Virus record (IMG/VR): IMGVR_UViG_3300045988_077276
Coordinates: 1-64,000 of that record
Direction: 5' to 3' (one strand)
Origin: a virus
DNA length: 64,000 nucleotides
Shown: positions 33,662 to 42,538 of the stretch, one piece after another
Numbering within the stretch: position 1 is the first letter of the stretch
Layout of the letters: every line of letters starts with the position of its first letter
Notes under the pieces: model-generated
What the model was told of the DNA's origin: nothing
Databases searched by the model: none
The model's input: the letters and a program-made list of their open reading frames with translations, nothing else
Position numbers and translations under genes: made by a program

Positions 33662-33690
33662 TTGACGTTTATAATCTTGTGTGCTATAAT
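33662..33690 (+). promoter_or_regulatory. promoter of a stand-alone ncRNA, preceded by phased A-tracts
   Basis: TTGACG 33662-33667, a 17 nt spacer, TATAAT 33685-33690. Runs of A5-6 lie across 33590-33650. Confidence 0.7.
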
Positions 33691-33696
33691 GTGTTT

Positions 33697-33880
33697 GTCG
33701 GTGGTTAGTCAATCTAATAATCACCAAAACAATACAGCTAACAAAACTACAGAACAAAAATCACCTTCATCAACTCGTTGTGTAGTCAATAACCACCGAC
33801 AACCATTTTATATAAACCACGGTATATAATGTAGCACCACCGTCTATGGTGCAACCGTCCACGATACCGTGGTCTTTTTT
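33697..33880 (+). ncRNA. candidate ~185 nt small RNA (promoter, two long helices, intrinsic terminator, no ORF)
   Basis: A 12 bp helix, TGTCGGTGGTTA (33696-33707) with TAACCACCGACA (33790-33801), encloses a G-poor C/A-rich ~80 nt loop. A 10 bp helix, ACCACGGTAT (33816-33825) with ATACCGTGGT (33864-33873), is followed by C + T6. Confidence 0.6.
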
Positions 33881-34167
33881 ATGTCCACACATATGAATGG
33901 TTGTTCATGTGTTCATCAATGTGTGGCATCCGTGGTTTGTCTATGGTGCGTACTATTGGGATATACATACGCACATACCGAACATATCTATTGTTATTAT
34001 CTATTGTAGTCCACAGAATTTATACGTTGACCGCATCATACGCTGCATCCATATGTGATACCACGAATAACATCGTGTGTGGTAACGGTGGACACCATGT
34101 GTGCGACATACAATACCACATACGTATACCACATGATATTCCGTGGTTATAATACCTATATAATTCA

Positions 34168-34262
34168 TTCTATGGCGTTCTGTGGTGCGTTTACACCGAG
34201 CCACATATGTTTATATACCCCATCTATTAAACACGCCATATAACGCAAATAAATCAATTTTT
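34168..34262 (+). repeat. accessory-region repeat unit, copy C1 (degenerate, forward)
   Basis: Contains GCGTTCTGTGGTGCGT and AAACACGCCATATAACGCAAATAAATCAATT, matching blocks of C2, C4 and C5. Confidence 0.5.
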
Positions 34263-34730
34263 GTATATCTCCACGGATTTTTTACATCTATATATATCTA
34301 TAATACATAATAAACAATAGTAATAACCGTGGATTTTATATGTGTATATACATATATATATACATATGTCCACCATTTTTATATGTATATATGTGTATTT
34401 ATATTTTCGATTTATATATTTTGTTTTTTCACATAATATTATTGTTGACCGCCCAAGTCGTTCTCAATGCGTTCTCAATCGGTTGCCACACGCTGCACAT
34501 ACGACCATTTCATGAATTACATTTTGTAATGCTTACCATGCGTTTTAATCAATCGAATAAATTCAATCAGTTTGAAAACTTTAGATAACTAAAGGGTGAA
34601 AACTTTCGATATAATCACACATGATTAAATTGTATGCAATAATATGAATGTTTGAACATATGAATATATTGTCATGTATTCATCTATAGGGGTATAACTT
34701 TAGGCTATGGCTAGCAATAGATTTTTTCTA

Positions 34731-34759
34731 TTATGCAATCAGTCGTATTCGTGATATAA
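34731..34759 (+). promoter_or_regulatory. cassette 1 promoter (extended -10)
   Basis: TTATGC, a 17 nt spacer ending in TGA, TATAAT 34754-34759. Confidence 0.5.
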
Positions 34760-34829
34760 TGAGTGTAACGAAAGATAATAAATGTCTTTCATAGGTCTTT
34801 AATAATTGAATAAGAAAGGATAATAAAAA

Positions 34830-35207
34830 ATGTTTAAAAATTACAATGCTAACCCAAAGGGGAAAAAGGTTGCGGACTGTGTTATACGTGCTATAAGTAC
34901 GGCAATAGGTGAAAGTTGGCAAGATGTTTATAGAGATATGGTTGATCACTCTATAAAAGAATGTACCGTATTCAATGATAAGAAATTCATTAAGAAATAT
35001 ATTACAAACGTACTAGGGTTAGAGATGCAAAAACAACCACGATTTACAAACGGTAAAAAGTTAACTGTATCAGATTTTGCGACATGGTACGATAGCGGTA
35101 CATACATAATCACTATTGCCAATCATTTAACAGTCATAAAAGATGGTATTATCTTGGATACTTGGAATTGTGAAAATAAATGTGTTGGTAACTATTGGAA
35201 AGTATAA
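34830..35207 (+). CDS. hypothetical protein, possible papain-like Cys-His peptidase/amidase fold
   Basis: N-terminal NPKGKKVADCVIRAISTAIG (candidate catalytic Cys) and C-terminal ANHLTVIKDGIILDTW (candidate His/Asp). It has its own promoter and terminator. Confidence 0.6.
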   Translation: MFKNYNANPKGKKVADCVIRAISTAIGESWQDVYRDMVDHSIKECTVFNDKKFIKKYITNVLGLEMQKQPRFTNGKKLTVSDFATWYDSGTYIITIANHLTVIKDGIILDTWNCENKCVGNYWKV

Positions 35208-35217
35208 GGGTTGTAAC

Positions 35218-35250
35218 GGCGGTATACTAAAGGTATACCGCTTTTGTTTT
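35218..35250 (+). terminator. cassette 1 terminator
   Basis: GCGGTATAC (35219-35227) pairs with GTATACCGC (35233-35241), then TTTTGTTTT. Confidence 0.8.
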
Positions 35251-35254
35251 GCCC

Positions 35255-35425
35255 CTGTATTCTCAATTAGTCCTATTAAATGAGAATATGCAACATAAAT
35301 GAGAATTACTATCAATAAAAAACTGCTTAAAATCGTCTATACGCCCCTTTTTAGGTGTTCCGCTTATGATTGTACATAAGAGTGGCAAAACGCCATACAA
35401 GCGAAAATACACAATTATAACATAT
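35255..35425 (+). repeat. accessory-region repeat unit, copy C2 (forward)
   Basis: Shares AAAATCGTCT(A/G)TA, CGCTTATGATT(G/A)TAC and AAAACGCC(A/G)TACAA..CAATT blocks with C4. Confidence 0.6.
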
Positions 35426-35980
35426 ATGATAAAAACATAAATTTCACGCAAGCCGTAAACCATAGACAAAGCACATAGAAATGTACGCCTATAGTAGACA
35501 TCACTATAAAACGCTACAGGATTGATAAACATTCTCAATACAATAAATCCAGCGTAGTGCCACAATTTAATTGTGTACAACCAATGTTACATACCATATA
35601 TGAACATATGTACATATACTAATATACAACATATGAACAGTTATTCATATGTTCAATCATACGTTTTTCTAATATGTACACATGAGCATATATTCATATA
35701 TGAAAACGATTGTATACAATTGATACACACCACAAATAAACATATGTGATTTAATTGTATAAAACATAATTGTGTAACCTATAGTATAGACCCTATTTTA
35801 AATTGCATACAATTGTTTATACATATGCATTAATTGCATAATGCTATATTGATTTTTATAGGTATAAAACAATAATGAAAACATTTGTCAATAACACATT
35901 TAAAACATTCGATATACAACAGTATCCACCACAAATAAACAAAAATACGCCTTATGTATGTACACAAAAGACACACGCCG

Positions 35981-36135
35981 TATTCTCATTTAGACAATAG
36001 CCGTAAAATTGATTTATTTGAGTTGTACGGCGTTTTTAGTCTTTTGCATATAATCATAAGCGAAAACATTTACACGCACCATAGAACGCAAATAAATAAA
36101 CTACTAGTTGAGAACAATTATCAAATACGCTGGGT
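35981..36135 (-). repeat. accessory-region repeat unit, copy C3 (inverted); core 35995-36076 is the left arm of an 82 bp inverted repeat
   Basis: The reverse complement of 38536-38617 aligns to 35995-36076 with 72 of 82 identities by hand alignment. Confidence 0.8.
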
Positions 36136-36148
36136 TTTCTCCTAGGTG

Positions 36149-36177
36149 TTGACAAATTCGCTAAAATGTGGTATTTA
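36149..36177 (+). promoter_or_regulatory. cassette 2 upstream promoter
   Basis: TTGACA 36149-36154, a 17 nt spacer ending in TGG, TATTTA 36172-36177. Confidence 0.5.
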
Positions 36178-36245
36178 TATATATCTATTAAATATATGAA
36201 AAACTAATAGAAAAAAAAATATTTTTGAAAATTTCTATTTTAGTA

Positions 36246-36274
36246 CTTGCGTTATATCGTAAATATGTTATAAT
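36246..36274 (+). promoter_or_regulatory. cassette 2 promoter (homologous to the cassette 3 promoter)
   Basis: TAGTACTTGCG...TGTTATAAT. The same TAGTACTTGC -35 context is seen at 38765-38776. Confidence 0.6.
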
Positions 36275-36402
36275 GTAGCCATAGGGAACAATAAAACATA
36301 TTCCCTAAGGTCTTTGATAATTTCATACAGATATAACCGCCGTTAAGATATGGCGGACTTGCGAACAGATAGACATAGTTATTTATGAAAGGATGAGGAT
36401 AC

Positions 36403-36669
36403 ATGAAAGTATATAACTTTGATAGTCTTTGTTTATGGTTGTATGATTATAATAGACTTATTGATTATGTAAAAGTTACCAATATCAAGAAAATTGGGTT
36501 TAATACTTTAGAGGGTAGTCGCTATATTGGTAATGTAAAGATCATCACTAAAGATGGTTACAAAAATAAACTATTAAGTTTTTATATTAACTCAAGTTAT
36601 TTAGATGATAGCCTAACAGAAATTACATCTACAGTATTAAACGAATATTTGAACAACTGTTTATTATAA
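36403..36669 (+). CDS. hypothetical protein (AT-rich cassette 2)
   Basis: Track ORF with a GGATGAGGA SD. Confidence 0.6.
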   Translation: MKVYNFDSLCLWLYDYNRLIDYVKVTNIKKIGFNTLEGSRYIGNVKIITKDGYKNKLLSFYINSSYLDDSLTEITSTVLNEYLNNCLL

Positions 36670-36680
36670 AGGGGTATAAC

Positions 36681-36788
36681 ATGAATTATCTTGAAATTTT
36701 TCAAACTGTAGGCGGTTTTATATTCGCCTTATGTTTTTGGTATATGTGCTATAGGCTAGAAAAAACTGTATCAAGTCTAAAGAATTAA
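36681..36788 (+). CDS. 35 aa single-TM peptide
   Basis: Hand-translated MNYLEIFQTVGGFIFALCFWYMCYRLEKTVSSLKN. AAAGGGG SD. It is below the track cutoff. Confidence 0.4.
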   Translation: MNYLEIFQTVGGFIFALCFWYMCYRLEKTVSSLKN

Positions 36789-36806
36789 ACGAAAGGAACA
36801 AACAAC

Positions 36807-37070
36807 ATGAAAATTGAAAATATGACTAGTGCACAAGGGAATAAAGTCCCTAACCAATTTAAATTATACTATAATAATTTTGTGGCTTTTCAATCATATG
36901 AAACCTTAATAAGTGTATACGATTGTAAAAATGATACGATGTATACAGATAAAGACTTCTACAGTAACACCACATCAAAATATAGAAATTTATTTAATGG
37001 TGAATTTCAACCATTAGTAGTTATTGAAGTAGATAACGAAGAATTACACAAAATCATTGAAAGGGGTTAA
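36807..37070 (+). CDS. hypothetical protein
   Basis: Track ORF with an AAAGGAA SD. Confidence 0.6.
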   Translation: MKIENMTSAQGNKVPNQFKLYYNNFVAFQSYETLISVYDCKNDTMYTDKDFYSNTTSKYRNLFNGEFQPLVVIEVDNEELHKIIERG

Positions 37071-37073
37071 ATA

Positions 37074-37388
37074 ATGGATATTTTGGAACAAATAAAGGAA
37101 TACCACGAAGAAAACGCAACAAATATTATGAATATTTTTGAGTTACTAATGAAAGAAAATAAATTACAAGACTATACTGTAATCGAAGTTTTGGAACAAA
37201 CGGCGGATAATAACCGATTAGGGAACGAAAAAATTCCACATTGGTTTTATGATGTCGTAGATTATAACGACTTTTGCGAATATATCGAAAGTCTAAATAT
37301 TATCGAATTAGGGAACGATTTTATAAAAGTATCTGACAATGAATATTATTATATTCGTGATATTGTCGAATTAGCAGAGGGGTTATAA
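37074..37388 (+). CDS. small acidic protein, weakly ArdA-C-terminal-like
   Basis: Asp/Glu-rich. NEKIPHWFYDVVDYNDFCEYI resembles the IP..L..YIDYE.F motif of ArdA antirestriction proteins. This comes from memory only. Confidence 0.55.
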   Translation: MDILEQIKEYHEENATNIMNIFELLMKENKLQDYTVIEVLEQTADNNRLGNEKIPHWFYDVVDYNDFCEYIESLNIIELGNDFIKVSDNEYYYIRDIVELAEGL

Positions 37389-37693
37389 TGAAAATAAAAG
37401 GGAATATACACAAAGTTATAAACATGAATAATTATATCCATAGTCTACAAAATGAACATAATATCATTACTTATGCAGAAAGTAGCTATTTATACAATTA
37501 TATTGACTATGATAAAATGAATGTTATATTATGTGATGATTATGATATTTATTTATTTGTAATGAAAAATAAATATTGTTTGTTTTTTAGTGGTGCACGT
37601 TATGAATACGATACACTAAAAGAGTTAAATAAACAACTATATAGAATATTAAATATTTTGTATTATTTAGAGGTTGAAAGAGTACAACGTTAG
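37388..37693 (+). CDS. hypothetical protein
   Basis: Track ORF with a TAATG overlap. Confidence 0.55.
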   Translation: MKIKGNIHKVINMNNYIHSLQNEHNIITYAESSYLYNYIDYDKMNVILCDDYDIYLFVMKNKYCLFFSGARYEYDTLKELNKQLYRILNILYYLEVERVQR

Positions 37694-37812
37694 GCGGTGA
37701 AAAATTGACTATAGTATTATTAGCTTTGATCGTTTGTTTTATCAAACGAAAACAAAGCGAACAAAATAAACTCTTAAAATAATTTTAGATGATACGAAAG
37801 GAACAAATTATT

Positions 37813-37992
37813 ATGACACGTGCGGAACAATTACAAGACATCAAAGAAATTTTATTAGAGGAATTAGAGTATCGTGTATCTATTGGCGAATTGTCGGAAG
37901 ATAACTCTTTATTCGATATGCTAGAGTGGAATAACTTTCAAGCACTCAAAGGATTATACCGCCGTTTGTTTGGTTATGGTTATGAATGTTAG
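37813..37992 (+). CDS. small hypothetical protein
   Basis: ATG 37813 follows AAAGGAA, in frame with track ORF 37789..37992. Confidence 0.5.
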   Translation: MTRAEQLQDIKEILLEELEYRVSIGELSEDNSLFDMLEWNNFQALKGLYRRLFGYGYEC

Positions 37993-38004
37993 GAGGTTAA
38001 AATT

Positions 38005-38385
38005 ATGGAATTTAAAGAGTTATTATCTTATGCAAGAGAATATAGGGAAGAAATGAAAAATGATAAATATTATGACTTAAGAGACTTTTTAGAATTAATA
38101 CAAGATTTTGACACGGAACAATGTAATACTTTTGAATACATTAGGGAAGACATGAATATTCAAGATAGTGCAGAAATTTGTTGTAATGGCAATTATCGTT
38201 ATTATAATGATATTTACGACCTAGTGGCGGAAGAATTAGAATTGTTCACGGCTAAAAGTGATATTTTACCAAGTTGGTTAAATATCGACTATAGAGGAAC
38301 ATTTGACGATTTAAGCTATTATAATAATTATGTCGTATGTGGTTCTGATGTCATGTATTCTAAAATTTTAAATTATTGGTATTAA
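38005..38385 (+). CDS. small acidic protein, weakly ArdA-C-terminal-like
   Basis: AGGAGG SD. SDILPSWLNIDYRGTFDDLSYYNNYVV resembles the ArdA IP..L..YIDYE..ARDL motif. Confidence 0.55.
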   Translation: MEFKELLSYAREYREEMKNDKYYDLRDFLELIQDFDTEQCNTFEYIREDMNIQDSAEICCNGNYRYYNDIYDLVAEELELFTAKSDILPSWLNIDYRGTFDDLSYYNNYVVCGSDVMYSKILNYWY

Positions 38386-38391
38386 ACCTTT

Positions 38392-38420
38392 GGCGGTGTA
38401 CTTATGTATACCGCCTTTTG
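38392..38420 (+). terminator. cassette 2 terminator
   Basis: GGCGGTGTAC pairs with GTATACCGCC, then TTTTG. The stem sequence is homologous to the cassette 1 terminator. Confidence 0.75.
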
Positions 38421-38430
38421 TATGCACTCA

Positions 38431-38620
38431 TATTCTCATTTAGGTTTTCTTATTAAGAATTGCTGCATAAGTCAATACGCTGGTTAAATGAGATTAATTC
38501 TCAAATAAAAATCGTCTGTATTCGCTTGTGTGGTACGTCTAAAGTTTTTCGCTTATGATTATACCTAAAAGAATAAAAACGCCGTACAACGCAAATAAAT
38601 CAATTCTATGGCTATTGTTA
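38431..38620 (+). repeat. accessory-region repeat unit, copy C4 (forward); 38536-38617 is the right arm of the 82 bp inverted repeat
   Basis: See C3. It also shares blocks with C2 and C5. Confidence 0.8.
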
Positions 38621-38770
38621 TATCTTGCGTATTATTGGCGGTGTTTATACAATAGACATTCCCTATAGTATGTCTTTATGTGGTGTACATCGGTATTTCT
38701 TGCGTTTGTCATTGGTTTAAACGATAGATATTCTCATATAAAATATTTTATTAAATTCTATAATTAGTAC

Positions 38771-38798
38771 TTGCATTTTTTCGTGTATTTGATATAAT
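38771..38798 (+). promoter_or_regulatory. cassette 3 promoter
   Basis: TTGCAT 38771-38776, a 16 nt spacer ending in TGA, TATAAT 38793-38798. Confidence 0.6.
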
Positions 38799-38857
38799 GA
38801 TAATAGAAAAGCGGTTATATTAAACACCGTTTATAATGTTGAAAGGAATAAATAAAG

Positions 38858-39451
38858 ATGAATACACAAAATAAAATAGTTGAATTATACAATAGAAATA
38901 ATCCTTATTATTGGAACGTTGAAAAATTCGTAACGGAACAGGGTTATAAAAATGTTTGTGAATATTGTGCGGACGTTTTAGACCGATTAGGATCGGTTGA
39001 ATGGTGTACAGAAAAAGCAACGGAAGATATGTATAATCAACAATATACAGACTTTGATTTTTTATATGAAGATACATTGGAATATCTAAACAGAAATTAT
39101 AATATTGTATGTATACCCACTCAAGGGCGTTGGAATGGAACATATAAGGGAAATTTACAAGATTGTAATAACATTGATATGTGTATTCATGACGATGTAC
39201 AAAAGGTTTCTATAGATGGTAAAGCGTTAATAATTGACGTTGCACATCATGACGGCAACAATCAATATATTTTATACTTTGTTGAAAGTCATAACCCTAA
39301 TATTGAAGAATATTATAACGAATTACAAGACAATGATTATTATGATTATGAATGTGGTGTAACACTAGATAATGAACAGGATGCAGAAAATTATATAAAT
39401 ACATATGCTATTGATTTATACGATATGTGGAATAAAGGCAAATTACAATAG
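38858..39451 (+). CDS. hypothetical protein (AT-rich cassette 3; acidic, Tyr/Asn/Asp-rich)
   Basis: Track ORF with a GAAAGGAA SD. It has its own promoter and terminator. Confidence 0.65.
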   Translation: MNTQNKIVELYNRNNPYYWNVEKFVTEQGYKNVCEYCADVLDRLGSVEWCTEKATEDMYNQQYTDFDFLYEDTLEYLNRNYNIVCIPTQGRWNGTYKGNLQDCNNIDMCIHDDVQKVSIDGKALIIDVAHHDGNNQYILYFVESHNPNIEEYYNELQDNDYYDYECGVTLDNEQDAENYINTYAIDLYDMWNKGKLQ

Positions 39452-39457
39452 ATATAA

Positions 39458-39486
39458 ACGGCGGTTATCATACCGCCGTTATTTTA
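39458..39486 (+). terminator. cassette 3 terminator
   Basis: ACGGCGGT pairs with ACCGCCGT, then TATTTTA. Confidence 0.7.
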
Positions 39487-39554: not shown

Positions 39555-39675
39555 CAATTCTCAATTATAAATCCTAATTGATAACGCCAGCGTAAACCAT
39601 AGATAAATGAGAATGTCTATCACTTAGAAATTCGTTTATTTGCGTTCTATGGTGCGTATGGCGGTTTTCACATGT
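39555..39675 (+). repeat. accessory-region repeat unit, copy C5 (forward, partial)
   Basis: CCAGCGTA and TTTATTTGCGTTCTATGGTGCGT match the reverse complement of C3 at 36075-36105. Confidence 0.6.
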
Positions 39676-39727
39676 ATTTATACGTTGGAGGTCTAATGTT
39701 CCATATAGGCGAATATACTACGTTATA

Positions 39728-39770
39728 TATACAATCGTTATATTTCAATCGGTTATACAATCGTTATATA
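39728..39770 (+). repeat. three tandem ~14 bp CAATCG iterons
   Basis: TATACAATCGTTATA / TTTCAATCGGTTATA / TACAATCGTTATATA. Confidence 0.7.
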
Positions 39771-40593
39771 TCCATTGTTTGAAAACATATAAAGCCATTT
39801 TGTGTACATCAGATAGACACAAGAAATAAACACGACTATTTGACAATCGTTATCATCAATAGAATGTGTATTGTGTATGTACAGATGTATGTATTGATGT
39901 ATGTTATTGTGTTGTATCTTGCGTATGTGCTTATGTTGGTGCTTTGGTATGTGTTGCGGTATGTGGTAAGTACTATAGAATTTTACAATATATATAAATA
40001 TGCATGGGACAAATACCGCCCAACGTGGGACGCTTTAAGTCCCAACATAGAACACGCCCAAGCCAATTACAAAAACTCATAACAAACATGATTTAAACGC
40101 ATGATACCACTATATCGAAAACAATAGATATGTTGCCATGGCTACACAATGGGATAATACAATATATAAACATATGAAAATACATTCATACGTATAGCCA
40201 CGATACAAACAATTATAAATGATAATGATTGAGAATGAATGTACTACTATAGGTATTCTATTACATTGTGCAAGCGTTCGCCGTTGGTTGTACCTAGTGT
40301 TATGTACTTATGTTATACCCCTATACAGTCCAATCATAGGGTACATACTACATCGAAAAATTTAGAAATTCCAAAAGGGATAACCATTATCAACTGGGGG
40401 CGGTTATATCATAACAAACCCAAGCCATACAAAAGTTACATACCCAAGACATACCCATGCTGCATACCCCAATACAAACAATGGTCTATACCAATGTCAT
40501 ACACTTTTGTTCCATACATAACACCCATCACTATAGGTATCATCTATATGTTTTAAAACCATACATATCAATACATATGTATTATGCAATTGA

Positions 40594-40717
40594 ATATACA
40601 ATCGCTATCTACAATCGGTTACTACAATTGAGATACATATGTTACATACATAATCCGTTATATGTTTGAAAACAATTGAGTATCCAATCGACCATACAAT
40701 CGTTTAAAACGATTGGT
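40594..40717 (+). repeat. second cluster of CAATCG-type iterons
   Basis: ATATACAATCGCTATC, TACAATCGGTTAC, TACAATTGAGAT, TATCCAATCGACC, and CATACAATCGTTTAAAACGATTGG (palindromic). Confidence 0.6.
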
Positions 40718-41360
40718 TAAAATTTATGTATAAAATTTTTATGGTAAACATATGTGTTAAACATATAAGGTAAAACGTATATTACATACACTAGAGTATT
40801 GTATTTGAAATTACAAATGTTTGATGCTATATGGACATACATATATTGTTCTGTTTTAACAATCGTTAGTTTCAATCAGTTTAATAGAAGTATGTGATAA
40901 TATGTTTGTGTCATACATACTTAACCATTTTACAAAATGGTAATCATCTCTCTATGGAGATGATTGACTATGTTCTTGATAGTCGGTTACATAAGATGGA
41001 AAAATATCAAACATAAACCGTTTGCCGTCCTATGCGTTACACTATAGGGGCGTACTTATGTCTGCCTTGGCGGTGTATACAATCGCTGCACAACACTAGA
41101 AATCCCATAAGACAAGCCAAGTGGCATCCATCGTTATCGCAGCGTGGTAAACTTGTGTGAACATAAAAATAAGCCATCGTTGACACCGCTGGTGGCATCA
41201 AGAATGACCCTATAAATGGTATATGTAATTTCCAATAGTTACACTAATGTGTAAAAACTTACGCATATATACTAAAAAGAATTTTATGGCGTTCAACCTA
41301 GATGGTTACTGGGTTTATGACGTAACGGAGAATCATTATTACTTCCGATAATTGAAAAAT

Positions 41361-41402: not shown

Positions 41403-41672
41403 TCCCAAATTGGGTACTTAAGTTTGAAACCCAAAAACAACAACAAGAAAAACATAACAACCGTTTATAGTCCAAACTGTTTAACCGACTTTGAAAAATA
41501 CTTAAGCCGTAGGCTTATTGCGAAGCAATGTGAAAACAAGTTTGAAACATACAGAACGGTAAACATAAGTTTTAAAACATATAAGATTTCTCTATCGAGA
41601 AATAATACTTCGTATTGATTATGTTTGTCGCTTATGCTTTAAGACTCAAACCGTATAACAAACCATATGCAA

Positions 41673-41741
41673 CAAAGGGCATACATAAGTATTAAACATA
41701 TATCATTCATATGTTGACACTTATGTATGCCCTTTGTTTTT
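41673..41741. terminator. 18 bp perfect inverted repeat, likely a bidirectional terminator
   Basis: CAAAGGGCATACATAAGT (41673-41690) pairs with ACTTATGTATGCCCTTTG (41719-41736), followed by T5 on the + strand. It lies about 10 nt beyond the stop of the reverse-strand gene at 41752. Confidence 0.7.
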
Positions 41742-41751
41742 CGTTTGTATT

Positions 41752-41997
41752 CTATTTTAATAATTCTTCTTCTGAACCACGTTTGGGATACGCATCTGTA
41801 ATCTTACCACCGATGCTCCAAAGAATGATTGCCAAGACAAAGAACCCAAGGAATCCATATGGTTCTCCAGAAACGGCACTGGCGATACCCAAGCCAAAGG
41901 ATGCACTACCAATCCACTTAAATAACATACCGACAAAATGTGCCGATGTAAAATATCCGATGATTAACGTCAAACCGACCATTGCAAAAATAAACAT
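41752..41997 (-). CDS. small membrane protein (3 TM) co-oriented with the recombinase
   Basis: Track ORF. TAGGAGGTAGC lies directly upstream of the ATG on the reverse strand. Hydrophobic segments FIFAMVGLTLIIGYF, SFGLGIASAV and FLGFFVLAIILWSIG. Confidence 0.7.
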   Translation of the reverse strand: MFIFAMVGLTLIIGYFTSAHFVGMLFKWIGSASFGLGIASAVSGEPYGFLGFFVLAIILWSIGGKITDAYPKRGSEEELLK

Positions 41998-42007
41998 ATG
42001 CTACCTC

Positions 42008-42538
42008 CTATAAGGACATGATGGCGTATACTTTAGAATTTAATTCTTCGGTTGTAATCCCAAGATAACGCATGGTGATTGCTTCTGATGAATGATTGAA
42101 TACTTGCATAAGGTATGCGATTGGCACACCCTTACGGTACGCATGATACCCAAATGTCTTACGCATGGAATGTGTACCGATGTTTTCAAGACCGCACTTA
42201 ATGGATGCAGCCTTGATTTTTCTCCATGCTTGGGTGGTCGTGATATGACCATCGCCAGAACGACTTGGGAATAACCAATGTTTGCAACGAGATGCGTATT
42301 CGCATAACATCTCATAGATTTCTTTAGACAATGCAAATCGTTTGAACTTGCCTGTTTTTTGTTCTCGTAATTCCATCATTGGTTTGACATCATCTACGGT
42401 TAAACCGACTAAATCGCTAATGCGTAGACCAGAGTTGATACCCAATGTGAATAACATTTTATCACGGTCGTTGGTCAATGCTTTACGCATTTCATTGACT
42501 TTGGCTAAATCTCTAATTGGTTCTGTTACTGTTGACAT
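42008..42538 (-). CDS. minimal tyrosine recombinase (catalytic domain only, 176 aa; FimB/FimE-sized)
   Basis: GLRISDL (Arg), GTHSMRKTF (HxxR) and NHSSEAITMRYL (His...Tyr). AGGAGGATAAATT lies upstream. There is no N-terminal core- or arm-binding domain. Confidence 0.85.
   Translation of the reverse strand: MSTVTEPIRDLAKVNEMRKALTNDRDKMLFTLGINSGLRISDLVGLTVDDVKPMMELREQKTGKFKRFALSKEIYEMLCEYASRCKHWLFPSRSGDGHITTTQAWRKIKAASIKCGLENIGTHSMRKTFGYHAYRKGVPIAYLMQVFNHSSEAITMRYLGITTEELNSKVYAIMSL

What the first reader, a model, noticed from the sequence alone, without database searches (positions are those of the whole stretch)
35995..38617. 82 bp inverted repeat (72/82 identical) bracketing the 2.3 kb AT-rich cassette 2
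The reverse complement of 38536-38617 aligns without gaps to 35995-36076, with 10 mismatches by hand count. Weaker similarity extends to about 150-170 bp. The two arms are the inverted (C3) and forward (C4) copies of a repeat unit. That unit also follows cassette 1 (C2, 35255-35425) and cassette 3 (C5, 39555-39675), and it occurs in degenerate form at 34168-34262 (C1). The pattern is promoter, gene(s), terminator, repeat unit. One cassette is flanked by inverted copies, and a small tyrosine recombinase gene lies 3.4 kb away. The options are an invertible segment, the footprint of a cassette-mobilising mechanism (attC- or PeSL-like recombination sites), or homology-driven shuffling.
Basis: seen in the sequence. 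Interest (0 to 1): 0.75.

Follow-up and report, generated by a model that had tools for sequence, protein, structure and literature searches.

The report
Repeated spacer modules in phage gene island
The inverted repeat is real, but it is two of five copies of a ~170-bp spacer that follows each small gene cassette in a fast-changing region of a probable Veillonella phage, and related genomes show cassette swapping but never flipping.

Summary
Observation confirmed. rc(38536-38617) matches 35995-36076 at 72/82 (shuffles reach at most 52/82), and the repeat extends to ~100 nt at 85%.

It is one pair from a five-copy family of a ~170-bp intergenic unit: 34160-34261, 35260-35419, 36000-36139 (inverted), 38433-38612 and 39558-39727. 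The family is confined to a 5.6-kb island of three promoter-gene(s)-terminator cassettes. The island lies between the replication and packaging modules of an uncultivated ~68-kb siphophage whose nearest genome hit is a Veillonella prophage.

About 40 related loci show a hyperplastic island. Cassette content, number and order vary, while the scaffold (terminator, unit, promoter) stays conserved. Every cassette-gene homologue is on the terL strand (78 of 78), so no inversion is seen. The inverted copy is absent from 4 of 7 fully spanning close relatives.

The unit cores do not fold as hairpins and show no covariation. What is conserved are palindromic boxes built on ATTCTCA/TGAGAAT.

The 176-aa tyrosine recombinase belongs to a family that sits beside terL in many phages lacking these repeats.

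Best reading: regulatory spacer modules that also serve as homology patches for PeSL-like cassette shuffling. It is not an invertible switch and not an integron. Moderate interest.

The parts
34160..34261 (+). Unit copy C1: core only, lacking the left-hand boxes. It marks the left border of the variable island and is present in 7/7 fully spanning relatives.
   Evidence: nhmmer profile positions 69-168, E=5e-16; aligned in 7/7 relatives at 83%
34731..35246 (+). Cassette 1. Extended -10 promoter (TGATATAAT ending at 34760), gene c1A 34830-35207 (125 aa, putative small papain-like Cys hydrolase), intrinsic terminator 35218-35242 plus T-run.
   Evidence: Sequence read; terminator; phrog_3754; invariant C17/H99/D110; AF2 pLDDT 93.9 with only weak papain-like fold hits. 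Present in only 1-2 of 7 relatives.
35260..35419 (+). Unit copy C2 (full). Box A ATTCTCAATTA-GTCCTAT-TAAATGAGAAT at 35259-35287; box B at 35300-35314.
   Evidence: nhmmer E=7e-28; boxes
35420..35999 (.). Non-coding 580-bp spacer between C2(+) and C3(-), with an imperfect palindrome at 35569-35721. Spacer length is conserved (478-608 bp) wherever the inverted copy exists.
   Evidence: Self-blast; spacing; the ORFs there are junk translations with stops in the window
36000..36139 (-). Unit copy C3, the inverted copy and left arm of the reported inverted repeat (35994-36094). Box B at 36109-36123, lone half-site at 35982-35993. Best-preserved palindromic core (16/18 arm pairs).
   Evidence: nhmmer E=3.7e-33 on the - strand. 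Present in window, L001, L002, L006, L012, L018, L019, L021; absent in L004, L005, L010, L027.
36247..36402 (+). Cassette-2 promoter (TTGCGT-16-TGTTATAAT, 36247-36274) and structured ~125-nt 5' leader. A weaker promoter-like TTGACA-17-TATTTA lies at 36149-36177.
   Evidence: Sequence; direct repeat with the cassette-3 promoter region (D5); aligned in 6/7 relatives; retained in genomes that lack C3. Promoter activity is inferred, not shown.
36403..38415 (+). Cassette 2: six small ORFan genes (88, 87, 104, 101, 67, 126 aa), two tiny hydrophobic ORFs, and terminator 38392-38415.
   Evidence: no significant Pfam or PADLOC hit, only sub-threshold Pfam matches; c2b = phrog_21575; homologues 30-91% identical in relatives whose terL is 99-100% identical
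38433..38612 (+). Unit copy C4, right arm of the reported inverted repeat (38519-38618). Box A at 38432-38460; box B at 38489-38503.
   Evidence: nhmmer E=1.4e-37. The scaffold T2-C4-P3 is alignable across 10 relatives while the flanking coding DNA is not.
38625..39485 (+). Cassette 3. Promoter-like TTGCGT-17-TACAAT (38625-38653), promoter TTGCAT-16-TGATATAAT (38771-38798), gene c3A 38858-39451 (197 aa, no family), terminator 39457-39480.
   Evidence: The whole cassette is absent in L001 and its gene content is replaced in L004, L006, L007, L010.
39558..39727 (+). Unit copy C5, right border of the variable island, present in 7/7 relatives. Box A at 39557-39585; box B at 39608-39622.
   Evidence: nhmmer E=2.4e-31
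41752..42538 (-). Small tyrosine recombinase (42008-42538, 176 aa, catalytic domain only) and a co-oriented 81-aa two-helix membrane protein (41752-41997). Considered as a possible partner of the repeats, but probably belongs to the packaging or genome-end module.
   Evidence: neighbourhood in cultured phages; no unit near 70 homologues

Best explanation
The window comes from an uncultivated ~68-kb siphophage. Its host is probably Veillonella, and its gene set looks lytic.

Between its replication/nucleotide-metabolism genes and its packaging genes lies a hyperplastic island. The island is built as U + n x [promoter - small ORFan gene(s) - intrinsic terminator - U]. U is a ~170-bp non-coding module placed 14-80 nt after each terminator.

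U carries two palindromic boxes built on the same half-site: box A (ATTCTCAWTTA-N7-TAAWTGAGAAT) and box B (TGAKAAT-N-WTTMTCA). After these comes a ~100-bp quasi-palindromic core. The near-invariance of the half-sites in copies that are otherwise only 70-85% alike indicates that a dimeric DNA-binding protein binds there. I infer that this protein is a transcriptional regulator or insulator of these independently transcribed early cassettes.

The reported inverted repeat is simply copy C3, which lies in reverse orientation just upstream of the cassette-2 promoter, paired with copy C4, which follows the cassette-2 terminator. It is a fixed structural feature, not a switch.

Over evolutionary time the conserved scaffolds (terminator + U + promoter/leader, ~400 bp) act as patches of homology. 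General recombination between co-infecting relatives at these patches replaces, deletes, adds or reorders cassettes without breaking neighbouring transcription units. The phage's own Gp2.5-like annealing protein and exonucleases would help. This is the logic described for PeSLs in T4-like phages.

Shown: the repeat family, the architecture, the island's variability, the constant gene orientation, the lack of hairpin conservation, and the box conservation.

Inferred: protein binding, the regulatory role, and homologous exchange as the mechanism.
For: Repeat family and its restriction to the island.

Architecture U | [P-genes-T-U] x 1-3 in 11 fully or largely spanning genomes. The alignability profile alternates between scaffolds (5-7 of 7 genomes) and genes (0-3 of 7). 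In the T2-C4-P3 alignment, identity jumps from unalignable to mostly identical exactly at the terminator and is lost after the -10.

Recurrent breakpoints at scaffold edges (34567, 36169, ~36394-36409, ~38369-38390, ~39447-39452).

L001 lacks cassette 3 and keeps one hybrid unit, with a C4-type left arm and spacing to the terminator and a C5-type remainder. Alternative centre segments (CGCTTATGATT / CCCTAGGGTTT) are shared among copies at different positions, and four-gamete incompatibilities are scattered through the units.

Cassette proteins are 30-91% identical where terL is 99-100% identical, and gene order is permuted in L018, L028 and L040.

Box conservation: positions G2 A3 A5 A6 / T11 T13 C14 A15 are fixed in 38-39 of 39 copies. 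The degenerate box B pattern occurs 8 times in the window against 0.32 expected. Eleven of the 22 ATTCTCA heptamers fall within 5 kb.

The phage encodes a Gp2.5-like annealase and two exonucleases, and the window ORFs searched against PHROGs or Pfam include no large integrase or repressor.

The distant Veillonella prophage relative has the same multi-cassette island, with a repeated promoter/leader instead of U. So the island design is ancestral and the repeated scaffold is what recurs.

PeSL properties used for comparison: PMC2839356, PMC4122927.
Against: No protein that binds the boxes has been identified, and no transcription data exist. The promoters rest on extended -10 motifs with poor -35 hexamers, and the consensus scan did not list them.

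The boxes lie 120-330 bp upstream of the next promoter rather than over it, which is unusual for a simple operator.

Scaffolds are not better conserved than the genome backbone (about 77-85% against 86-96%), so 'conserved' is only relative to the cargo genes.

Four-gamete incompatibilities per informative site are no higher in the scaffolds (0.39-0.47) than in terL or the recombinase gene (0.41-0.52). At 10-20% divergence some of them may be homoplasy. The units are therefore not demonstrated recombination hotspots.

Within one genome the copies share only 8-23 bp perfect runs, so exchange must be mainly between orthologous scaffolds of different genomes.

Why one copy is inverted remains unexplained.
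Confidence: 0.6

Rival explanations
1. The units are recombination sites of an integron-like cassette system. The small tyrosine recombinase (42008-42538) binds the 11-7-11 box A that follows each terminator and inserts or excises circular [P-genes-T-U] cassettes by site-specific crossover in the 7-bp spacer.
For: Box A has the classical geometry of a tyrosine-recombinase core site, two 11-bp inverted arms around 7 bp. The array U + n x [cassette-U] is what serial single-site integrations would give. The hybrid unit of L001 changes type within or next to box A. A catalytically intact recombinase of unknown role lies 2.3 kb from the last unit and is conserved in all relatives.
Against: The spacers of box A differ between all copies of one genome (GTCCTAT / GGTTTTC / TAAATCC) and vary among orthologues. 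By established tyrosine-recombinase rules, non-identical overlap regions block strand exchange.

Homologues of the recombinase sit divergently beside terL, ~1 kb from the genome end, in phages Lietuvens and PK2. Seventy homologue loci (723 kb) contain no unit. The Veillonella prophage relative has the recombinase and the island, and its genome gives only one weak partial unit hit (E=5e-5).

Box B uses the same half-site in a 7-1-7 arrangement that cannot be a crossover site. Incompatibilities are scattered through the unit rather than focused. The L001 evidence rests on one nucleotide plus spacing. The recombinase scores 28.9 bits against the integron-integrase model, whose cut-off is 265.
Confidence: 0.08
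2. The 2.4-kb segment between C3 and C4 is an invertible element (phase variation). It is flipped either by the small recombinase, in the manner of the small FimB/FimE-type invertases, or by homologous recombination between the arms.
For: A 93-101-nt inverted repeat of 85-86% brackets the segment. A small catalytic-domain-only tyrosine recombinase is nearby, with a faint match to the tyrosine-type invertase model (25.8 bits, cut-off 222). Two IMG/VR contigs break inside the inverted copy.
Against: No cassette-gene homologue is reversed: all 78 in about 40 loci lie on the terL strand, and all 10 further clade loci recovered through the C3 flank agree. Four of seven fully spanning close relatives lack the inverted copy altogether yet keep cassette 2 in the same orientation. 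Promoter, leader, genes and terminator are all inside the segment, so inversion would not change what is expressed. The longest perfect match between the arms is 18 bp. The arms have no shared short core with identical spacer. The recombinase family is not tied to these repeats.
Confidence: 0.03
3. The units have no function of their own. They are decaying relics of old tandem and inverted duplications of an intergenic region, or of a MITE-like element that once spread within the island, and they are retained only because they hitch-hike with terminators and promoters.
For: Copies within a genome are only 72-86% alike. Some copies are truncated: C1 has the core only, and L113 has the left part only. 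Several copies are dispensable, since C2 and C3 are absent in four of seven fully spanning relatives and C4 in two. The unit is confined to one phage clade. There is no consensus secondary structure.
Against: The half-sites of boxes A and B are almost invariant across 39 copies from two sub-clades whose terL genes differ by ~23% at the nucleotide level, while neighbouring positions vary freely. Position 4/12 of box B toggles G/T with C/A in a palindrome-consistent way. Copies keep position-specific subtypes that are orthologous across genomes, which indicates long persistence under constraint. There are no target-site duplications and no near-identical dispersed copies as expected for a recently active MITE.
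Confidence: 0.2

Closest known systems
PeSLs (promoter-early stem-loop cassettes) of the hyperplastic regions of T4-like phages (Arbiol et al. 2010, PMC2839356; Comeau et al. 2014, PMC4122927)
   Same: Conserved intergenic regulatory sequence (host-type promoter plus terminator) flanks small ORFan genes in a plastic region. Close relatives differ by insertion, deletion or replacement of the genes between the motifs. A deletion leaves one chimeric motif. Each cassette is transcriptionally insulated. The proposed mechanism is homologous exchange using phage recombination functions.
   Different: PeSLs are compact (~100 bp), with the stem-loop placed in, overlapping or immediately next to the promoter. 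Here the scaffold is ~400 bp, with a separate intrinsic terminator, a ~170-bp unit carrying palindromic boxes, and promoter(s) 120-330 bp further on. The host phage is a siphovirus, probably of a Negativicute, not a T4-like myovirus. One copy is inverted. There are only 5 copies in one island, against ~50 PeSLs per genome. Mini-circles have not been shown here.
Morons of lambdoid and other phages (autonomous promoter-gene-terminator units)
   Same: Each cassette is a self-contained transcription unit of accessory genes with lower GC than its surroundings.
   Different: Morons are thought to insert by illegitimate recombination without conserved flanking sequence (as summarised in PMC2839356). 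Here each cassette is followed by a conserved repeated module.
Integron gene-cassette arrays (IntI + attI + attC)
   Same: A tandem array of small variable cassettes, each followed by a partly palindromic repeat, with a tyrosine recombinase gene in the neighbourhood.
   Different: The recombinase is 176 aa without the IntI-specific insertion, and is far below the model cut-off. The repeats are conserved in sequence, not in structure, and do not fold as ssDNA hairpins. The cassettes have their own promoters and terminators. No attI was looked for.
Host-takeover module of Bacillus phage SPO1 and similar multi-operon early regions (from my own knowledge, not checked here)
   Same: A cluster of many small genes of unknown function in several short operons, each with a strong host-type promoter and terminator, near the genome end or packaging region.
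   Different: No ~170-bp repeated spacer module is known to me there. The comparison is by recall only.
DNA inversion switches (Fim, Hin/Gin, shufflons, C. difficile RecV switches)
   Same: An inverted repeat brackets a DNA segment, with a small recombinase nearby.
   Different: Those switches have short near-identical repeats, both orientations coexist, and inversion changes a promoter or coding junction. None of these holds here.

Membership tests
PeSL-type regulatory cassettes | Conserved intergenic motif combining a sigma70-type early promoter and a terminator stem-loop | tested here: inconclusive
   A terminator and an extended -10 promoter are both present in each scaffold. They are 200-380 bp apart with a unit in between, not a compact ~100-bp composite. 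Promoter activity is not shown.
PeSL-type regulatory cassettes | Located in a hyperplastic region, flanking ORFans that differ between close relatives | tested here: met
   Cassette genes have no significant Pfam or PADLOC family.
PeSL-type regulatory cassettes | Indels between relatives are bounded by the motifs and leave a single chimeric motif | tested here: met
   L001 lacks cassette 3 and has one unit with a C4-type left edge and a C5-type remainder. This is a single clear case.
PeSL-type regulatory cassettes | Formation of cassette mini-circles during infection | not testable with these tools
   Needs inverse PCR or read data.
Integron | IntI-type integrase (~320 aa with the IntI-specific additional domain) | tested here: not met
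   176 aa; TIGR02249 scores 28.9 bits against a cut-off of 265.
Integron | attC sites: imperfect palindromes conserved as single-strand hairpins rather than in sequence | tested here: not met
   ssDNA folding z-scores of -1.4, 0.0, -0.5, +1.3, -2.1. RNAalifold finds no consensus structure. Arm pairing is 61% against 32-48% in slid registers, without compensatory changes.
Integron | Promoterless cassettes expressed from a common Pc | tested here: not met
   Each cassette has its own promoter-like element and intrinsic terminator.
Invertible DNA switch | Inverted repeats bracketing the segment | tested here: met
Invertible DNA switch | Both orientations occur in natural populations | tested here: not met
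   All 78 cassette-gene homologues in about 40 assembled loci are on the terL strand. Assemblies show only the majority state, so a rare minority orientation is not excluded.
Invertible DNA switch | Inversion alters expression (a promoter or coding junction crosses the repeat) | tested here: not met
   Promoter 36247-36274 and terminator 38392-38415 both lie inside the segment.
MITE / small mobile repeat | Near-identical copies at unrelated sites, terminal inverted repeats with target-site duplications, and presence/absence independent of the flanks | tested here: not met
   Copies are 72-86% alike and confined to one island. Subtypes are positional and orthologous across genomes. The unit was not found outside this phage clade in IMG/VR by exact-pattern scans.
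Small terminase-adjacent tyrosine recombinase of Firmicutes phages (phrog_216) | ~175-aa catalytic-domain-only PF00589 protein encoded next to the terminase genes | tested here: met
   phrog_216 E=2e-53. 225 phage records carry homologues. The same divergent arrangement with terL is seen in Lietuvens and PK2. The function of this family is unknown to me.

The most novel reading that the evidence does not exclude
The island is a phage-borne, integron-like cassette platform. A minimal (176-aa) tyrosine recombinase captures and excises self-expressed [promoter-genes-terminator] cassettes at the 11-7-11 ATTCTCA box that follows every terminator. That would be a cassette-exchange system unrelated to IntI/attC, possibly shared in other guises by the many phages that carry this small recombinase beside their terminase.
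Probability: 0.07. Interest if true: 0.85.

Novelty: new variant of a known kind. Interest (0 to 1): 0.4.

Why it matters
If the reading is right, PeSL-style modular evolution is not confined to T4-like myoviruses. In that model, conserved regulatory scaffolds act as docking points for swapping small accessory genes. Here it would also operate in an uncultivated siphophage clade of the human microbiome whose host is probably Veillonella, using a longer and differently built scaffold.

The island offers a compact natural library of fast-evolving early genes, likely host-takeover or counter-defence functions. One of them looks like a miniature papain-like hydrolase. It also offers a sharply defined palindromic box whose binding protein could be sought.

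For the original question the result is mainly corrective. An inverted repeat plus a nearby recombinase is not enough to call a switch, and comparative genomes argue against one here.

Tried and rejected
- A megablast of the region against GenBank phages found nothing. The closest cultured terL is ~36% identical.
- One IMG/VR pattern scan was wasted on a wrong spacer length.
- RNA or hairpin reading of the unit: RNAalifold gave no structure. My first arm register was wrong and was corrected. ssDNA folds are not better than shuffles.
- A promoter inside the unit core: a TATAAT on the reverse strand has no usable -35 or TG at the right distance (read). Dropped.
- A small protein encoded in the unit or the spacers: the ORFs are not conserved and carry stops in orthologues.
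- The C2-spacer-C3 palindrome as a replication origin: rejected because it is absent from 4 of 7 relatives.
- The 68-bp palindrome 41671-41738 as a recombinase target: it is a long hairpin plus T-run between convergent genes, so most simply a terminator.
- Four-gamete analysis as a hotspot test: not discriminating, because incompatibilities are equally dense everywhere.
- The metagenome scan with the recombinase added only ~10 close loci.
- The fold search for c1A gave no significant match.
- Literature searches found no description of Veillonella phages of this type, of PeSL-like elements outside T4-like phages, or of the small recombinase's role.

Full report
**1. The observation**

The reverse complement of 38536-38617 matches 35995-36076 at 72 of 82 positions without gaps. 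In 20 shuffles of 33-41 kb that keep local composition, the best 82-nt inverted window reached only 46-52. The repeat finder extends the pair to 93 nt at 86% (35994-36086 / 38526-38618), and blastn to 101 nt at 85% (E=2.5e-26).

An nhmmer profile seeded on the forward copy and iterated on the window plus relatives defines five copies of a ~170-bp unit (U) in the window:

| Copy | Coordinates | Strand | Note |
|---|---|---|---|
| C1 | 34160-34261 | + | core only |
| C2 | 35260-35419 | + | full |
| C3 | 36000-36139 | - | inverted |
| C4 | 38433-38612 | + | full |
| C5 | 39558-39727 | + | full |

Its characteristic words occur almost nowhere else in the 64 kb; the few matches outside 34-40 kb are at the mismatch limit and within chance expectation.

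The 'promoter, gene(s), terminator, unit' order is correct. Strong intrinsic terminators lie at 35218-35242, 38392-38415 and 39457-39480. Extended -10 promoters (TGnTATAAT) end at 34760, 36274 and 38798 (sequence). These promoters are inferred from sequence. The consensus scan did not list them because their -35 hexamers are poor.

**2. What genome this is**

All large ORFs run on one strand. The window encodes:
- primase, a DnaB-like helicase, a Gp2.5-like ssDNA-binding/annealing protein, and two exonucleases;
- several DNA methyltransferases, dNMP kinase, dUTPase and ThyX;
- a tRNA cluster;
- then terS?/terL/portal and a 1656-aa tape-measure-sized ORF.

The ORFs I searched included no large integrase or repressor. 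No GenBank phage is close.

IMG/VR holds 31 related contigs, mostly of about 45-73 kb, in two sub-clades with terL 99-100% or ~90% identical. The only hit in the species-representative genome collection is a 63%-identical terL inside a 232-kb contig of Veillonella sp. 3310. So the host is probably Veillonella. That is an inference from a fairly distant relative.

**3. Comparative anatomy of the island**

Against the close relatives, 39.45-45.1 kb is collinear at 87-93% and 33.1-34.57 kb at 77-82%. The stretch 34.6-39.45 kb is a mosaic.

I mapped units, terminators, promoters and ORF families in each locus. The common design is U(core) followed by one to three blocks of [promoter - small genes - terminator - U(+)].
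- Cassette 1 is present in only 1-2 of 7 fully spanning relatives.
- Cassette 3 is missing in L001 and has different genes in L004, L006, L007 and L010.
- Cassette 2 varies gene by gene.

The alignability profile shows the alternation. The promoter/leader 36.2-36.4 kb aligns in 6/7 relatives, T2 + C4 in 5/7, and T3 + C5 in 6-7/7. By contrast c2f (38.1-38.3 kb) aligns in 0/7 and c1A in 1/7.

In the alignment of the T2-C4-P3 scaffold, the sequences change from unalignable to mostly identical exactly at the terminator, and diverge again just after the -10. Cassette proteins are 30-91% identical in genomes whose terL is 99-100% identical, and gene order is permuted in L018, L028/L037 and L040.

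L001, which lacks cassette 3, retains a single unit. Its left arm and its distance to the terminator are of the C4 type, and the rest is of the C5 type. Twenty of 31 IMG/VR contigs end within 10 kb upstream of terL, several exactly in C3 or at T3/C5. I read this as assembly breaks at a repeated, polymorphic region.

The distant Veillonella prophage has the same kind of island. It has six tandem cassettes upstream of a 177-aa recombinase, terS and terL. There the repeated element is an 83-89-nt promoter + leader, and the unit gives only one weak partial hit in that genome. So the island design is old and the unit is lineage-specific.

**4. Is the segment invertible?**

The evidence says no.
- Every tblastn hit of every cassette gene in about 40 related loci is on the terL strand: 78 hits, none reversed.
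- Ten further clade loci recovered through the specific outer flank of the inverted copy all show cassette-2-type genes downstream in the forward orientation.
- The inverted copy C3 is absent from L004, L005, L010 and L027, which still have cassette 2 in the same orientation. L005 keeps a fragment of it, suggesting deletion.
- Promoter and terminator are inside the bracketed segment, so a flip would not toggle expression.
- The arms share at most 18 bp of uninterrupted identity, which is poor substrate for homologous inversion.

Assemblies report only majority states, so a rare minority orientation cannot be excluded without reads.

**5. Is it an attC-like or recombinase-driven system?**

The unit core matches the profile on both strands, so it is an imperfect palindrome. 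The palindrome is not maintained, however.
- RNAalifold finds no consensus structure in 39 copies.
- The arm-arm pairing is 61% of cells against 32-48% in slid registers. Only C3-type copies pair well (13-16 of 18), and there are no compensatory changes.
- ssDNA folding z-scores are -1.4, 0.0, -0.5, +1.3 and -2.1.

The recombinase (176 aa, catalytic residues intact) scores far below every curated family cut-off.

Its family (phrog_216) is widespread: 225 phage records and more than 565 metagenome stretches. In Sporosarcina phage Lietuvens and Bacillus phage PK2 it sits divergently beside terL, about 1 kb from the genome end. The unit profile finds nothing in 723 kb around 70 homologues. In this window it is co-oriented with an 81-aa membrane protein and followed by a hairpin terminator. 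The simplest view is that it belongs to the packaging or genome-end module. Its function there is unknown.

**6. What is conserved in the unit**

The left part of every forward copy carries two boxes.
- Box A is ATTCTCAWTTA-N7-TAAWTGAGAAT, at 35259-35287, 38432-38460 and 39557-39585.
- Box B is TGAKAAT-N-WTTMTCA.

Across 39 copies that are otherwise 70-85% alike, box B positions 2, 3, 5, 6, 11, 13, 14 and 15 are fixed in 38-39 copies. Positions 4 and 12 toggle G/T and C/A. The degenerate box B occurs 8 times in the window against 0.32 expected, six of them in the island. Eleven of the 22 ATTCTCA heptamers lie within 5 kb.

The 7-bp spacer of box A is different in every copy of a genome and varies among orthologues. 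This is the pattern of a dimeric DNA-binding protein's sites. For a tyrosine recombinase, the differing spacers would block exchange between copies.

From memory only, and untested: box B resembles the 7-1-7 boxes of Fur-family regulators, and the box A geometry resembles the phi29 p4 sites.

**7. Mechanism proposed**

U is a regulatory or insulating spacer module bound by an unidentified dimeric protein. It forms part of a ~400-bp scaffold (terminator + U + promoter/leader) that separates autonomous early cassettes.

The reported inverted repeat is the accidental pairing of the one reversed copy (C3) with the next forward copy (C4).

Cassette turnover proceeds by general recombination between orthologous scaffolds of co-infecting relatives, aided by the phage's annealase and exonucleases, as proposed for PeSLs (PMC2839356, PMC4122927).

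Caveats:
- Four-gamete incompatibilities are scattered through the units, but they are equally dense per informative site in terL and the recombinase gene. The units are therefore substrates, not proven hotspots.
- The scaffolds are less conserved than the backbone.
- Why C3 is reversed is unexplained.

**8. Cargo**

The cassette genes have no significant Pfam or PADLOC family. c1A belongs to a widespread unannotated family (172 hits) with invariant C17, H99 and D110. Its AlphaFold model is confident (pLDDT 93.9), but the only fold matches, all weak, are papain-like deubiquitinases and a papain-like toxin. It may be a miniature cysteine hydrolase; this is not established.

**9. Verdict**

The switch and integron readings are not supported. 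The homology-driven shuffling option is supported and sharpened. This is a new variant of a known kind (PeSL-like scaffolds in a siphophage whose host is probably Veillonella) and of moderate interest. The residual novel possibility is site-specific cassette exchange at box A by the mini-recombinase, which I put at about 7%.

Noticed in passing
window 33662-33882: An ORF-less transcription unit. It has a near-consensus promoter (TTGACG-17-TATAAT) and a 186-nt transcript that folds far better than shuffles (z = -6.3), ending in an intrinsic terminator. In 10 orthologues the closing stem GTCGGTGGTT/AACCACCGAC and the 3' domain are invariant, while the ~80-nt interior is hypervariable. Only 2 pairs covary. 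This is a candidate phage small RNA.
   Followed up: partly
window 39728-41350 (and L032 6100-8160): A 1.6-kb stretch without credible genes is aligned in 7/7 relatives at about 70-95% identity per 100-bp bin (mean 86%). It contains TACAATCG-type repeats. The Veillonella prophage relative has an analogous 2-kb non-coding stretch with about a dozen CTATAGAT repeats at the same place, just before the recombinase and terminase genes. It may hold the packaging site, genome ends or an origin.
   Followed up: no
window 40697-40761; L004 4843-4905, L005 4439-4502, L010 5252-5316: A 65-bp motif containing the palindrome CAATCGTTTAAAACGATTG is found once in the long non-coding region of all genomes. 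In three relatives it is additionally inserted immediately after an ATTCTCA box upstream of the cassette-3 promoter.
   Followed up: no
window 36681-36788 and 37706-37780: Two tiny hydrophobic ORFs inside cassette 2 (35 and ~25 aa) are the only parts of that cassette alignable in about 7 of 7 relatives (means 7.0 and 6.7). They are either conserved membrane peptides or internal linker sequences.
   Followed up: no
window 36374-36386; L032 733-745, 1204-1216, 2603-2615, 4412-4424: The 5'-leader motif AGTTATTTAT, just upstream of the ribosome-binding site, is shared between cassette 2 of the window and four cassettes of the distant Veillonella prophage, despite otherwise unrelated leaders. The preceding CAT is shared with three of the four.
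   Followed up: no
window 33800-34440: Many CCGTGG/CCACGG words (about eight) are followed by a very AT-rich stretch (34280-34440). The pattern is origin-like, with iterons plus an unwinding element. It is conserved in 7/7 relatives.
   Followed up: no
window 13130-13188 and 14031-14087: Two short (57-59 nt) Rfam tRNA hits flank the four-tRNA cluster, but ARAGORN does not call them. They may be truncated or unusual tRNAs.
   Followed up: no
window 41671-41738 and 41752-41997 (-): The 68-bp near-perfect palindrome is a 20-bp-stem hairpin followed by a T-run, between convergent units. The + strand 'ORF' 41711-42013 is a shadow of a - strand gene for an 81-aa two-helix membrane protein with an AGGAGG site, co-oriented with the recombinase.
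   Followed up: partly
window 34830-35207: c1A belongs to a widespread unannotated ~130-aa family (172 database hits) with invariant Cys17, His99 and Asp110 and a confident predicted fold. Its only structural neighbours, all weak, are papain-like deubiquitinases and toxins.
   Followed up: partly
L001-L031 contig ends: Twenty of 31 related IMG/VR contigs terminate within 10 kb upstream of terL, several inside the inverted unit or at the cassette-3 terminator/C5. This is far more than expected for random break points, and suggests strain heterogeneity or repeat-induced assembly breaks in the island.
   Followed up: partly
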